NCBI GenBank assembly: GCA_964016885.1 | Contig: OZ024740.1 | Coordinates: 77,934,001 to 77,998,000, forward strand | DNA: 64,000 bases | Direction: 5' to 3' | Source of the DNA: Eledone cirrhosa | Lineage: Eukaryota | Shown: piece after piece, positions 2,075 through 49,634 of the stretch | How positions within the stretch are numbered: the stretch's first letter is position 1 | How the letters are laid out: the number at the start of each line of letters is the position of its first letter | The notes under the pieces: model-generated | Databases searched by the model: none | The model's input: the letters and a program-made list of their open reading frames with translations, nothing else | Told to the model about the DNA's origin: nothing | Program-made: the position numbers and the translations under genes

Positions 2075-3697
2075 ACCTCTACAGTCAGGTGACAACTACA
2101 GATATCTGGGACAGGGTGAGAATGTCAGATATGATGGACCCATAAATAAGGAGAGAACCAGAACTGAATACCTCAGGAGAGTAAAGAAAATATGGTCATC
2201 AAGACTATCAGCGTACAACAAGTACATTGCCCACAATACTTATGCTGTGTCAATCCTAACACCAACATTTGGTCTGCTGAACTGATCATTGCCAGAACTA
2301 AGTGAGATGGATGTTAGAACTCGCAAGCTTCTCACTGTTACTGGAAACTTTAACATCAATGGTGATGTGGATAGGCTATACTTCTCACGCAAGGAAGGTG
2401 GCCGCTGTTTAAAATCCATATTAACATCATACGAGACCCGAATAGTAACACTGAAGCAACATCTTCAGCAAAAGAAAAAGGTCAGCAACTATCTTGCCTA
2501 GGTCGATGAGCTTCAAATCATTAGGATAGCCACTGATATGGAGGAGAGATATGGAATAAGACCTGATATAAATCTCTCTCCCAGGGAAATTGGAAGATCC
2601 TATTCAATGTTCGAACAAGATAAAAAAAAATGGACCAATTTACAGAGAAAGTTGTGCATGGGTACGTGAGACGAAAAAGACAGACCATAAATCATTCAAA
2701 AAGCTTGGCATGGAGTTCCGACAAGTTTACCCACCTTGAAGGATATCTCTATCCAATACAGGAACAAGAAATCCCTACCAAATATCTGCTACACAAGAGA
2801 AGAGGGCCATCAGTCGTCAATAAATGTAGGCTTTGTAAAACAAAAATCGAAGATGTTAGCCACATTGTTGCCAACTGCGAAAGAATGTCATCTCGTTACT
2901 ACCTCCCCAAGAGACACGATGTGATAGCTAGAACCATCTGTAGCGCACTTAGGGAAACAAAATTAAAAATAAATATGTTGAAATAGATGGCACTAAAGAA
3001 TACTGATGGAACCTGAAAATAAAAACTGACACCAAACACCAAATTAAAGCACAACCGGCCTGATATTGTTGTTTGGAACCACACATTGAAAACGTGCTCT
3101 GTTGTAGAGATCAACTACCCACTTGATGTCAACGTTGTAAGAAAAATACAATAGAAGGAGGACATTTACGGACCATTGATGAGTAGTTTGCAGATCCAGT
3201 ATTCAAGATACACCTTCAGCTTAATACCCATCATTATTGGAGCTACAGGGCGGTGGATTAGCAGTATCGGTAGAGGGTCGGACGCCATGCTTTGCAGCAT
3301 AGAGTTACGGCCCTTTATGATCTGAGTTCAAATCTCGCCGAGGTTAACTTTGCCTTTCATCCTAACGGGGTCGATAAAATAAAGTACCAGTCACGAACTG
3401 GGGTCGATTTAATCGACTTTCCCCACCCCCAAAATTGCTGGCCTTGTATAAGAAACTGTTATGGAGTTACAGGTTATATACCAACCCGCTTGGACCAAAG
3501 TATAACTGAACTTGCAGTTGTGGACAAAAAGCGCAGCTCCCTAATTCATAGACTACAAATGGCCATGGTATCTGGCACCTTCAAAATTTGCAAAACATTC
3601 TTGCGATTCAAGGGATGACAATTTCTTTTCTTTTACAACCTTGCCATCAGGAAGGTGGCCGGTCAAAAATGTACTCGAAATTAAGAGAAAAAGAAAC
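2075..3697 (+). mobile_element. 5'-truncated, decayed R4/Dong-like non-LTR retrotransposon (RT C-terminus, CCHC knuckle, restriction-like endonuclease)
   Basis: Broken frames give YLRRVKKIWSSRLSAYNK, DVRTRKLLT, DVDRLYFSRKEGGR, CRLCKTKIEDVSHIVANC, RHDVIAR, KHNRPDIVVWN and IPIIIGATG; stop at 3616-3618; begins at a (CA)n tract; interrupted by a SINE. Confidence 0.85.
3249..3462 (+). mobile_element. tRNA-derived SINE family A inserted in the R4-like LINE
   Basis: A-box-like TAGCAGTATCGG, B box GAGTTCAAATC, central GCCTTTCATCC..GGGGTCGATAAAATAAAGTACCAG; TSD GGAGCTACAGG (3239-3249) / GGAGTTACAGG (3463-3473). Confidence 0.9.
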
Positions 3698-3798
3698 AGA
3701 TATATAGGTTGATAGTTGGTTAGGTAGGTAGGTATGTAGGTAGGTAGGTAGATATATATATGTTCATGATATATATATATATATATATATATGTTCAT

Positions 3799-3850
<52 letters not shown>

Positions 3851-3852
3851 TC

Positions 3853-4815
3853 TTTATTTGCCACAGGGGTGTACAAAAATGGGACATTACAAGACGTGAC
3901 GGCGGGGGTTTTACATAAAAATAACTTTCACATTAATAAATAACAATAAACTATATATAATAAAATAACAATTGAAATCCCCAATAAGGGGAGAACATTA
4001 CTGCAGGGTTGTTTTACACCCCGTGGATAGAACAACCCTCAACACCAGGAACACGTTTTGTAGGTGTTCCTGTCTTCCCTCTGTTTATCTTCCTCAACCT
4101 ACAGGTTTATATACAGAGAAGGCCCATTCACTCGGGTCATTTTCACCACATTCACCCACCTTTCAGCGAATTTACTGGGGTGTAGCACCTCTCTCTCCAC
4201 TCTCACCTTCCTTCTGAAGTGGTACTTAAAGAAGGGGATAAGTTGTTGTCCGGAGAGAAAGGTGTTTGTCCCCAGTCCTTTTAACCTCGTCCACCATATT
4301 ACCTCTTTCACCATAGCCACCAGACAGAAGAAAATCGCCTCTCCTTCGTTCTTAAATGAAGGCAGCGGGGCGATCCTCACGATGGACTCGGCTGACAACT
4401 GGATGCGTCCCACACGTGACAGCAGCTGTTTGACATAATTCCACAGGTCGGTCACCCCTGGGCACTGAACAATTGCGTGCAGAACGGTTTCGATGTCCTG
4501 CTCGCATCTTGGACAGGTCCTTTTGGCAGGATCTCTGCCAGGGCGTCCGTGCCTGTAGGTTTTGTCTCGAACTGGTAGAGCTCCTCGGTAGCACTGCCAG
4601 GCCAGAGACCTCTGGAAGTTATCCATAGGCCCTGGACGGAAAGTCCTCCCGAACAAACTGGTCAGTTCGTCCTCCTCAATGCCTCGAGTTTCCACGAGAA
4701 CGTCGTCGCACTTATCCTCTACTAATCCCCTATAGAATGTCGAAGTGGAGTCTCCGCTGATTGCCGTTTCCGCTTGGTAAAGGGCTGTGAGCGCCTGTAG
4801 GCACTCGAGGTGCCA
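3853..4815 (-). mobile_element. 3' fragment of a Tx1/L1-like LINE (zf-RVT region plus 3' UTR)
   Basis: Open frame 4815-4099 with LAWQCYRGALPV and CPRCEQDIETVLHAIVQC; 3' UTR ends in AATAAA directly before (TATC)n. Confidence 0.85.
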
Positions 4816-25159: not shown

Positions 25160-25361
25160 AAGAGAGACATATATATATGCATATATATGTGTGTGTGTGT
25201 GTTAGGTATTTCCGAAGGAAAAGCAAAGGAAAAAGGAGTGCTCTATGTATTGAACAGAGCTATCTAATTATAAAGTGAACAACACAAAATATAACTATTC
25301 CATTACTGACCAACGGTCAAAAATACAAATATAATATAGATATAAACACATATATATAGTC

Positions 25362-25405
25362 TAACAAAGTTCTTTCGTCGCACATCTGCAACATCGTCAG
25401 TGGTG
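25362..25405 (-). ncRNA. Minimal hammerhead ribozyme, same family as 47841-47885
   Basis: Minus strand CACCA-CTGACGA-T-GTTGCA(GATG)TGCGAC-GAAA-GAAC-TT; stem II covaries with the 47.8 kb copy; stem I weak. Confidence 0.7.
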
Positions 25406-25717
25406 CTATTATGTTCCTCCTATTGTATTGTATATCTACGCCATATATATTAGGTATAAATCGAAGTTATAGCCGCAGTAGACCATATATATATATATAT
25501 ATGTGTGTGTGTGTAATCTGGACTGTTTTAAACTAGAAACCAGGTAGTGAATTTATATTATATTAATTTTATCTTAAATCTTCAAATATATGCAGTGTTT
25601 TAAATGAATATCTATTATTTAATTAGTTTCGTTGCCAAACACTTCATGCAAATTATACAGACCATTTAATTTATGTTCTATACGTTGCTTGATATAAATA
25701 TCGATTCTCTGTAGGCA

Positions 25718-47195: not shown

Positions 47196-47347
47196 TCTTT
47201 ATATATATATATATGCAGAAGTTATATTTAATTTGTTGGGATTCCAACAAACTTAAAAGTTTATAACTGATATAGAGCACTCAACAGTTTACTGGAGTAA
47301 ATATTCAATATATTATAAAATCGAAACTTTATTTATAAAACCATAAT

Positions 47348-47413
47348 TATTTTATTATATATATTTCAAAGGCAACCAAGGCAAATTTTGGTGCGCTTTC
47401 ATCAGATAAAATA
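47348..47413 (-). ncRNA. Hammerhead ribozyme, left arm of a fold-back palindrome
   Basis: Minus strand TATTTTAT-CTGATGA-AAGCGCACCAA..TTGGTTGCCTTT-GAAA-TATATA-T-A-ATAAAATA. Confidence 0.8.
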
Positions 47414-47531
47414 CAAAATTTGTTTTATAAATAGTGACATAACCGTGGAAAACAACCTTGACTATCCAGCGAATTTTCAACCGTCAAGGTTGTTTTCCAC
47501 GGTTATGTCACTATTTATAAAACAAATTTTG

Positions 47532-47596
47532 TATCTTATCTGATGAAAGCGCACCAAGACTGCCTTGGTTGCCCTTGAAATATATATAATAAAATA
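47532..47596 (+). ncRNA. Hammerhead ribozyme, right arm of a fold-back palindrome
   Basis: TATCTTAT-CTGATGA-AAGCGCACCAAG(ACTGC)CTTGGTTGCCCTT-GAAA-TATATA-T-A-ATAAAATA. Confidence 0.8.
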
Positions 47597-47638
47597 ATTA
47601 TGGTTTTATAAATATAGTTTCCATTTATTAATATATTG

Positions 47639-47685
<47 letters not shown>

Positions 47686-47840
47686 ATACTTTGGGAGGGT
47701 CATGTTGCCAATAAGAAACACACGCACCAGTTGCTTTCACTTCAATTTAATTTAATATATATTTATAAATTTACAAATTTATAAATTTCTGGTTGGTTGG
47801 TTGGTTGGTTCCACAACCAGATAGTTGTTTATATATATAT

Positions 47841-47885
47841 AGTCATAGTTCTTTCGTCACACACTCTGTGACCTCTTCAGTGACT
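47841..47885 (-). ncRNA. Intact minimal hammerhead ribozyme of the Penelope-like element
   Basis: AGTCA-CTGAAGA-G-GTCACA(GAGTG)TGTGAC-GAAA-GAAC-T-A-TGACT; stems I and II perfect, CUA cleavage triplet. Confidence 0.88.
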
Positions 47886-48182
47886 GGGGATTTCTTTCTT
47901 CGTTTCTGTGCCTTTCCTTTCTTCTATCCTACGCCATTTTGTTTGTGTGTGGGTTGCGTGCTCAGTTTGCGCATGCGCCACATCCGGGTGTCTGTGTGTG
48001 TTTGTGTTCATTTTTCTATTTTTCTATTTATATTTGTTTGTTTATTTATTTATTTATTGTTGGTTGGTTGTTTGTTCTATGTGTGTGTGTGTGTTTTCAT
48101 TTTGTCTTGTGTGTTTTCATTTTGTGTGTGTTTTCAATTGTAAGTTGTTTGTTCTATGTGTGTGTGTGTTTTCATTTTGTCC

Positions 48183-48710
48183 TTAATTGTAAGTTGTGAT
48201 GTTGCTGTTCCACTCATATTTTCTATTTAATTTTGGTTTTAATTCTTTTATGCTTACTGCCTCTGTAATTTGCCTAAACATTGCGTCTTTCTTGTGTGTG
48301 GATTCTATTTTTATTTCTATGCTCTCTAATTTACCCCTGTGTTCTATCTTAGCATGTTGGTAGAGCACAGATGATTCTTTACTATCTTGGAGGTCTCGCC
48401 AGTGTTCATTTATTCGTTCCCCTATACTACGAGCTGTCTCACCTATGTACACTATATTTTTGTTTCTACATTGTCCCTCAGTACATCTTATGCTATATAC
48501 TACATTTCTAGTTTTACAGTTAATATGGGGGCTTATTTTACAGGTTATACATTTCTTATCTATACATGAGGGTCTTTGGAACGGGTATGTCTTGCTAATA
48601 AGTGTTTTTACGGAGGTACCAGGTCTTTCTACTATCTTAATATTGAGATTATGTTTCTTTAGGGCCCTTCTAAATTTGTAGGCTAGTTCGCCTCTAGGGG
48701 TTGTATCAAT
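48183..48710 (-). CDS. C-terminal 175 aa of a Penelope-like ORF: Cys-rich linker plus GIY-YIG endonuclease (no start codon, RT lost)
   Basis: IDTTPRGELAYKFRRALKKHNLNIKIVERPGTSVKTLISKTYPFQRPSCIDKKCITCKISPHINCKTRNVVYSIRCTEGQCRNKNIVYIGETARSIGERINEH..QH..RQITEAVSI..PKLNRKYEW. Confidence 0.88.
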   Translation of the reverse strand: MDTTPRGELAYKFRRALKKHNLNIKIVERPGTSVKTLISKTYPFQRPSCIDKKCITCKISPHINCKTRNVVYSIRCTEGQCRNKNIVYIGETARSIGERINEHWRDLQDSKESSVLYQHAKIEHRGKLESIEIKIESTHKKDAMFRQITEAVSIKELKPKLNRKYEWNSNITTYN

Positions 48711-49204
48711 ACAACCCCTAGAGGCGACCGATAGTCGGGCCGCATTGCCATAGCGACGAAGAAAACTGAACTCAGGAAAAAAAAAAATATATATATATAT
48801 ATATCGGTGTTTTGTTACTGTTTTCTCTTTCCTTCCCCTTCGGTTTCTTTCCCTCCTTCTTCCGTTTTCTCAATAACTTATCCAGTTATTGACGCCCTGG
48901 GGCGAAGTATATTGTCTTTAAAGCGTAGAAATATCCGAGACCCAGTAGACAACTGATGAGGACCCACCCCACACCCGTTCTTGCTTTCTTCGTATTCCCA
49001 TTGCATTTTAAGTTACCTTAAATAGCAACTACACAGCCATTTCTACTCTCTCTCTCTCTCTCTCTCTAAAAACAAAATTTGTTTTGGCTCTAATCGCGAA
49101 TGCGTAAATGCATTCGTGAATTTTATATCGAATAATAATAACAATGTTATATTGTTTTAGACGACTATCGTCATCCTTTTGTTCTAGTGGTAACAGAGAG
49201 AGAA

Positions 49205-49249
49205 ACAATCGACAAATGTTTCGGGGTTATTGCCCCTTGTCAAGATTGT
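49205..49249 (-). ncRNA. Hammerhead fold with mutated core (TTGACAA)
   Basis: ACAATC-TTGACAA-GGGG(CAATAA)CCCC-GAAA-CATTTG-TC-GATTGT; all stems intact, GUC triplet. Confidence 0.7.
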
Positions 49250-49634
49250 GTACCTCTCCTTTTCTGCTACACACTAGAATTCTTGAGGGTATATAGTACT
49301 AGAATTTTCTTTCAACACGCTCGCGCGTATGTGTGTTTGTGCATATGCATACATTTATAAGTATGAGTATATAAATATAAACGCGCAAACACAGACACAC
49401 TTACAAAAATACACACTCACAAACATAGATTCACACAAATACACACTCTTATACATGCATTCACAGACAGCGTAGCAATTGGAACGCCAGCCGCTGTTTT
49501 GCTGTAGTTTTTTTCACTATCCCCTTCCTTCACACAAATACACACACATGTGTGACGGACGGACGTCGCTCACATTTATATATAGATTCTCTAAAGTATA
49601 CATCGGCTGATTAGCCTAATTTGCATACAGAGCA

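What the first reader, a model, noticed from the sequence alone, without database searches (positions are those of the whole stretch)
47681..48727. Penelope-like element joining a GIY-YIG ORF, an intact HHR and a snap-back hairpin at the 5' break
Seen: a stop-free 175-aa frame with a Cys-rich linker (CIDKKCITC..C) and VVY..YIG endonuclease, an intact HHR about 300 nt downstream, a 3' end in (AT)n, and a perfect 19-bp hairpin (48688-48706 / 48709-48727, loop CA) exactly where the ORF is truncated. Inference: a young copy of an autonomous partner of the HHR mini-elements; the hairpin records cDNA fold-back at the end of reverse transcription.
Basis: partly seen in the sequence, partly recalled or inferred. 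Interest (0 to 1): 0.75.

Follow-up and report, generated by a model that had tools for sequence, protein, structure and literature searches.

The report
Twin-primed, mirror-forming Penelope-like retrotransposon
This is a cut-off copy of a young jumping gene whose end occurs over 20,000 times in this genome; its copies often sit as mirror-image pairs whose two outer ends fall at two different fixed points, which likely means the gene is copied twice from one RNA, once from each side of the DNA cut.

Summary
Observation confirmed. The stretch is a 5'-truncated, 98%-identical copy of a young Penelope-like element (4,286-bp unit, intact 1,267-aa RT + GIY-YIG ORF, minimal hammerhead) inserted in (AT)n. 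The 19-bp hairpin is absent from full-length copies and was made at the junction from native sequence. Its loop polarity excludes a one-step fold-back of the long arm's cDNA: a nicked hairpin or a lost second arm is needed. The family is more telling. In 96 of 98 two-ended insertions (two independent samples), one outer end lies at ORF position +26 and the other at +81-86. The two arms are near-identical, and in 20 of 63 neither arm can be a copy of the other. This best fits twin priming on one template. The clade is not Neptune: the linker is Nematis-like, but a ~70-aa insertion between RT motifs A and B fits neither. The flanking mini-elements are unrelated. Inversions and one-sided tails are known for PLEs; the paired count was not found in my searches. 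This scan noted both the two-site pairing (non-coding repeats) and the RT insertion before, on other DNA of this genome.

The parts
47644..47681 (.). (AT)n target microsatellite; last ATAT shared with the element end
   Evidence: tail-ending arms abut (AT)n in most of 101 insertions
47678..47703 (-). short tail: first 26 nt of the next unit's ORF (unit position +1 to +26), inferred RT start site
   Evidence: 100% match to unit 1-26; 77 ends at exactly +26
47704..48182 (-). 3' UTR / pseudo-LTR with microsatellite length variants
   Evidence: alignment to natural tandem unit
47841..47885 (-). minimal type I hammerhead motif (stems I and II, CUGAAGA, GAAA, 2-bp stem III)
   Evidence: no Rfam hit; cleavage untested
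48183..48706 (-). 3' end of the ORF: Cys linker (C-x4-C-x2-C-x7-C) and GIY-YIG endonuclease, unit 3281-3804
   Evidence: 0-4 differences over 521 nt to 158 of 159 other arms
48705..48727 (+). short inverted arm, unit 3277-3299; AT shared with the long arm
48724..48781 (+). 3' remnant of an unrelated repeat of about 230 nt; 4-nt microhomology with the short arm; about 145-150 nt upstream missing

Best explanation
This is a 5'-truncated young copy of an autonomous Penelope-like retrotransposon in an (AT)n tract, and its family likely integrates by twin priming, with both cut target strands priming reverse transcription on one template at two AATAT sites 60 nt apart. Inferred steps: the GIY-YIG cuts both strands of (AT)n. 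One 3' end pairs at +22-26 and the other at +82-86 of the RNA. Two cDNAs grow towards the 5' end, stop together or apart, and are joined head-to-head through 0-5 nt of microhomology, sometimes with templated inserts. In this copy only the +26 arm survives. The 19-bp hairpin was likely made when the cDNA end folded at AT-TG-AT, was extended, was nicked about 20 nt from the tip and filled in (about 45%). Alternatively it is the stump of a second arm that was lost (about 40%). The end was then joined to the far flank by 4-nt microhomology, with loss of at least 145 nt of target.
For: Shown: tandem 4,286-bp units with an open 1,267-aa ORF; RVT_1 and GIY-YIG hits; predicted fold closest to TERT, Z 15.1, rmsd 3.8, 360 aligned. 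Sample 1 (101 insertions from 99 clusters of the 150 scored hits): 80 head-to-head, 0 tail-to-tail; 63 of 64 two-tail insertions pair a short with a long tail, p 7e-18. Sample 2 (positional; 60 of 71 clusters from the first 100 tail hits on C1): 33 of 34. Either arm can be the longer one: short-tail arm in 32, long-tail arm in 29, equal in 2 of 63. In 20 of 63 neither arm can be a copy of the other, 15 of them by 200 nt or more. Some second arms are 15-20-nt stubs of the tail itself (L105, L123, L106). Arms of one insertion differ by 1.0 changes against 6.2 between insertions (46 loci, ~940 nt), and both arms of L080 share one 341-nt deletion. Centres coincide within 15 nt in 17 of 63, against a permutation mean of 1.1 and maximum of 7. 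Both tail sites end in AATAT. In vitro, a PLE protein cleaves and extends both strands and starts at two adjacent internal sites (PMC11167929, main text read). Window junction: native ATCAAT in 152 of 152 young arms; the same junction at six loci seen, five with 5-31-nt arms and one (L155) a full mirror.
Against: No intermediate was observed; all of this is read from finished insertions in one assembly. Two exceptions to the pairing: L075 short/short and L233 long/long. 'One RNA molecule' is not proven: the partner arm is strictly nearest in only 19 of 46 loci and in 1 of 11 testable non-copyable loci (most tie with 6-17 arms; L117 differs at 6 sites). Two RNAs from one source element, or later gene conversion, also fit. 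In sample 2 only 3 of 28 centres coincide within 15 nt and offsets form a continuum. Sample 1 is biased to long copies and to junctions near the query's start. An older subfamily has ATTGAT natively at the fold site (24 of 30 loci seen, 88-95% identical); a young template with that variant would allow a one-step fold-back, though none was seen.
Confidence: 0.7

Rival explanations
1. One cDNA always starts at the long tail, folds back, copies itself to +26 and makes a perfect palindrome; asymmetric deletion of the centre later gives the unequal arms. This is the first reader's fold-back applied to the family, close to the self-priming idea of PMC3846280.
For: Explains the strict short/long pairing and near-identical arms. 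Among 17 near-symmetric mirrors the long-tail arm reaches further in 10, the short-tail arm in 5, equal in 2. Short cis fold-backs exist (L083, L127, L040, L072). Self-priming was proposed from palindromic junctions (PMC3846280, passages read).
Against: 15 insertions would need one-sided deletions of 200-3,300 nt from the long-tail arm, and others leave only 15-20-nt tail stubs. Near-perfect 1.5-4-kb palindromes persist undeleted. A copy running to the cDNA's start should often give long/long pairs; 1 of 98 was seen.
Confidence: 0.15
2. Both target strands prime, but on two separate RNA molecules held by two protein subunits with different start-site preferences.
For: Fits the pairing and the non-copyable arms. 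The nearest-neighbour test does not single out one molecule. L117 arms differ at 6 sites.
Against: The excess of coinciding centres (17 of 63 against 1.1 expected) and the low within-locus difference are easier with one template. With hundreds of intact copies, two RNAs should often differ.
Confidence: 0.1
3. The window's hairpin is an assembly artefact, or was made long after insertion by unrelated break repair (host fold-back inversion).
For: Short templated inversions of 5-34 bp arise at any break in yeast (PMC11724301, abstract and passages read).
Against: The same junction stands at six loci with different flanks and arm lengths, always at the element's 5' break; it uses 4 native nt that the long arm lacks.
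Confidence: 0.05

Closest known systems
Poseidon_Ac (PAc), Penelope/Poseidon clade (PMC11167929; main text read)
   Same: Tandem units, pLTR with hammerhead, ends inside the start of the ORF at two fixed sites, AT-rich target, both strands cut and extended in vitro.
   Different: Here both sites are AATAT and match the target, whereas PAc starts at sites not homologous to the cut DNA. The tail is 60 nt, not 30-40. The hammerhead lies about 170 nt before the ATG. The family has a Cys linker and an A-B insertion. The strict one-site-per-end pairing is counted here, not reported in the text read.
Nematis clade (PMC8557442; passages and supplementary Figs S1, S2 and RT rows read)
   Same: C-terminal GIY-YIG with CCHH; short CX2-5CxxC linker with a 7-aa spacer.
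   Different: Motif A-B spacing 128 aa against about 60 (counted by hand from the figure); motif B GAAIG/GGAIG/GGPIG against LAMG; RKDHK against YKTHK.
Neptune clade (PMC8557442)
   Same: Cys linker, microsatellite bias, C-terminal EN.
   Different: Neptune spacer 25-27 aa against 7 here; no A-B insertion in the Neptune rows.
Adineta vaga Penelope elements (PMC3846280; passages read)
   Same: Head-to-head inverted pLTRs, 15-38-bp palindromes at inverted junctions, optional tail, Asn-rich inserts in the ORF.
   Different: Few copies there and a self-priming model; here thousands of copies, kilobase mirrors, and the Asn-rich block (33% N, aa 251-400) lies N-terminal to the RT.
LINE-1 twin priming
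   Same: Both target strands prime on one RNA and the cDNAs are joined by microhomology.
   Different: L1's second primer lands internally, giving non-overlapping inversions; here both start at the 3' end, giving mirrors. A few L1-like cases occur (L056, L057).

Membership tests
EN+ Penelope-like element, C-terminal EN | Single ORF with RT followed by GIY-YIG | tested here: met
   1,267-aa ORF; RVT_1 E 2.4e-4 (below curated cut-off) and GIY-YIG
EN+ Penelope-like element, C-terminal EN | RT closest to telomerase RT | tested here: met
   Top 6 Foldseek and top 14 VIA-align rows are TERTs; predicted model, pLDDT 92.8
EN+ Penelope-like element, C-terminal EN | Partial tandems (pLTR), inverted 5' copy, tail at one end | tested here: met
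EN+ Penelope-like element, C-terminal EN | Type I hammerhead in the pLTR | tested here: met
   motif and stems; no Rfam hit
EN+ Penelope-like element, C-terminal EN | Hammerhead self-cleavage; RT and EN activity | not testable with these tools
   needs biochemistry
EN+ Penelope-like element, C-terminal EN | CCHH motif in the EN | tested here: met
   two Cys between VVY and YIG, His residues after EHW
Neptune | CX2-5CxxC linker | tested here: met
   C-x4-C-x2-C, invariant in 11 of 11 aligned
Neptune | Long spacer (25-27 aa in 4 figure rows) before the pre-GIY Cys | tested here: not met
   7 aa here and in 76 of 102 proteins with the motif, range 5-11; figure rows
Nematis | Reduced linker (7 aa in 3 figure rows) | tested here: met
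Nematis | Canonical RT without insertion between motifs A and B | tested here: not met
   124-132 aa in 114 of 121 proteins where both motifs were found; 117-153 in 65 of 146 further ones; about 60 in figure rows
Neptune or Nematis | Placement in the RT tree with named references | not testable with these tools
   no labelled reference sequences came from the tools
Hydra | CCHH absent, CxCX5C linker, DKT | tested here: not met
   CCHH present, DKSG (definition)
Naiad/Chlamys | N-terminal EN | tested here: not met
   EN is C-terminal

The most novel reading that the evidence does not exclude
The family belongs to a large, unnamed clade of C-terminal-EN Penelope-like elements with a telomerase-sized insertion in the RT fingers. 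It integrates by obligate twin target-primed reverse transcription: two RT centres start at two fixed AATAT sites on one RNA, one per target strand, so that every successful insertion is born as a mirror. This would give the mechanism behind the inverted repeats and one-sided tails of PLEs, in a still-intact family with over 20,000 ends.
Probability: 0.35. Interest if true: 0.75.

Novelty: new variant of a known kind. Interest (0 to 1): 0.5.

Why it matters
How PLEs form their tandem/inverted structures is named as an open task in PMC8557442, and the one published idea that I read for the inversions is self-priming (PMC3846280). The counts here favour twin priming and give sharp predictions (two sites, one per strand, one template) for a family with intact ORFs, testable with the in vitro assay of PMC11167929. 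Thousands of kilobase-long inverted repeats are also a likely source of double-stranded RNA and genome instability in the host. The single window copy alone is an ordinary truncated insertion.

Tried and rejected
Hairpin as part of the full-length unit: rejected. Filler after the hairpin as untemplated sequence: rejected, it is a piece of another repeat. A special hotspot of 38 identical junctions: rejected, since 24 of the 30 loci seen are an older subfamily with that sequence natively and 8 were not examined by that call. Flanking minis as derivatives of this element: no match. DNA search with the 3' end returned nothing because common words are skipped. Pfam on the whole ORF gave nothing, on the C-terminal 780 aa two families. 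Sequence search of the PDB gave only I-TevI at E 0.18. Sequencing runs: no RNA holder listed; no contig of four laid runs covered 48708-48723, so the junction is neither confirmed nor refuted by reads. Homodimer prediction of residues 1-250 gave no verdict. Whether the A-B insertion superposes on the TERT IFD was not tested residue by residue. Literature: nine full-text searches found no paper counting paired ends or naming a C-terminal-EN clade with this insertion. Subscription papers (Arkhipova 2006 among them) and Repbase are not covered, and only parts of one supplement were read.

Full report
Observation. The arms 48688-48706 and 48709-48727 are exact reverse complements around CA, with about 6e-6 expected by chance. 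The minus-strand frame matches GIY-YIG. A minimal hammerhead motif lies at 47841-47885; Rfam has no hit at gathering score.

The element. The peptide found 150 scored matches at 99-100% identity among 38,832 candidates. A natural tandem array gave the unit: 4,286 bp, with an open 1,267-aa ORF. It carries RT and C-terminal GIY-YIG, an Asn-rich block at aa 251-400 and a predicted fold nearest to telomerase RT. The closest named relative is an Octopus vulgaris protein at 70%. An exact 32-mer of the end occurs 23,128 times and a 25-mer of the EN 3,346 times, so most copies are short. The window copy covers unit 3281-4286 plus 26 nt of the next ORF start, 98% identical overall. Its last ATAT merges with the (AT)n target.

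The hairpin. It is not in full-length copies, which read ATCAAT at the fold site in 152 of 152 arms. The short arm is native sequence 3277-3299; it reaches 4 nt further 5' than the long arm and shares AT with it. Beyond it lies the last 58 nt of an unrelated repeat of about 230 nt, joined through 4 shared bases, with about 145-150 nt of that repeat missing. Polarity matters (inference from the sequence). The plus strand is the long arm's cDNA; a one-step fold-back would leave TG in its loop, but it reads CA. Two routes give CA. In the first, the cDNA end folds at AT-TG-AT, is extended, is nicked on the cDNA side and is filled in. In the second, another cDNA anneals by AT and most of its arm is then lost. 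The same junction stands at six loci seen: five with second arms of 5-31 matching nt and one full mirror, L155. I put the two routes at about 45% and 40%. Laid contigs did not cover the junction.

The family, sample 1. I fetched all 99 clusters of the 150 hits and kept 101 insertions of 900 nt or more. 80 are head-to-head and none tail-to-tail. Outer ends cluster at +26 (77 ends) and +81-86 (82 ends); both sites end in AATAT. Of 64 insertions with both ends at a tail, 63 have one of each. The short-tail arm reaches further 5' in 32, the long-tail arm in 29, equal in 2. In 20 of 63 neither arm can have been copied from the other. Centres coincide within 15 nt in 17 of 63 (permutation mean 1.1). 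Arms of one insertion differ by 1.0 changes against 6.2 between insertions. Junctions show 0-5 nt microhomology or templated, sometimes repeated, inserts.

The family, sample 2. An independent positional sample took 60 of 71 clusters from the first 100 tail hits on C1. It gave 33 unlike pairs of 34. Centres there coincide within 15 nt in only 3 of 28. Against my reading, the partner arm is strictly the nearest arm in only 19 of 46 loci, and L117 arms differ at 6 sites. One template is therefore likely, not shown.

Mechanism. Shown: structure, ends, pairing and arm identity. Inferred: both nicked (AT)n strands pair with AUAU sites 60 nt apart and prime two cDNAs on one template, the second displacing the first (PLE RTs lacking RNase H is recalled knowledge); the cDNA ends are then joined by microhomology. 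This agrees with in vitro data on PAc, which cuts and extends both strands and starts at two adjacent sites (PMC11167929, main text read). It fits the counts better than self-priming (PMC3846280, passages).

Clade. The linker spacer is 7 aa, like the three Nematis rows and unlike the four Neptune rows (25-27) of PMC8557442 Fig S2. Motif A-B spacing is 128 aa. It is 124-132 in 114 of 121 proteins where both motifs were found and 117-153 in 65 of 146 more distant ones. The figure rows give about 58-60 for canonical PLEs, about 81 for a Naiad and 115-149 for TERTs (counted by hand). That paper states that canonical C-terminal-EN PLEs lack this insertion. No labelled tree could be built, so I file it as a PLE that is neither Neptune nor a standard Nematis.

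Partner of the mini-elements? The two flanking minis share nothing with the unit. The window's other canonical hammerhead (25300-25451) is a piece of a sister autonomous family: about 62% identical in RT-EN, about 4,147-bp units, the same ORF start, 8,283 pattern hits. Many apparent minis are thus short copies of autonomous elements.

Novelty and verdict. Inverted 5' copies and tails on one end only are described for PLEs (PMC8557442). Nine searches found no paired count and no named clade with the insertion, within the limits of the library. Earlier notes of this scan report the same two-site mirrors for non-coding repeats and the same RT insertion elsewhere in this genome; I had reached both readings before seeing them, and they are not independent support. 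The window copy itself is ordinary. The family gives strong, countable evidence on an open mechanistic question. Interest 0.5; new variant of a known kind.

Noticed in passing
window 47303-47641: Head-to-head palindromic repeat (90% arms) with a degenerate hammerhead-like core and one longer outer end; unrelated to this PLE.
   Followed up: partly
window 48804-49050: Repeat family at about 90% identity (3,051 candidates) ending at (AT)n, with a CTGATGA core but no canonical stem II-GAAA after it; possibly a rearranged hammerhead like those in earlier scan notes; untested.
   Followed up: partly
window 48724-48781; L143-L146: Repeat of about 230 nt that starts right after (AT)n and ends in an A-run (648 candidates); class unknown.
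   Followed up: partly
window 25300-25451; L257-L260: Piece of a sister autonomous PLE family, about 62% aa identity, about 4,147-bp tandem units, same ORF-start tail.
   Followed up: partly
L148-L176: Older subfamily (88-95% identical) has ATTGAT where the young one has its reverse complement ATCAAT, as if the 2-nt loop had flipped.
   Followed up: partly
L080: Both arms share a 341-nt deletion with ACAT microhomology, so the template already carried it.
   Followed up: yes
L037, L059, L094, L113: Junctions with repeated short templated inserts from both cDNA ends, resembling polymerase-theta-type end joining (resemblance recalled).
   Followed up: no
window 49196-49262 (minus): Degenerate hammerhead-like core (TTGACAA, 4-bp stem, GAAA) in a strongly folding short repeat.
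   Followed up: no
P0001 aa 251-400: Asn/His/Thr-rich low-complexity block (33% N) kept in frame before the RT, like the Asn-rich inserts of Adineta Penelopes.
   Followed up: no
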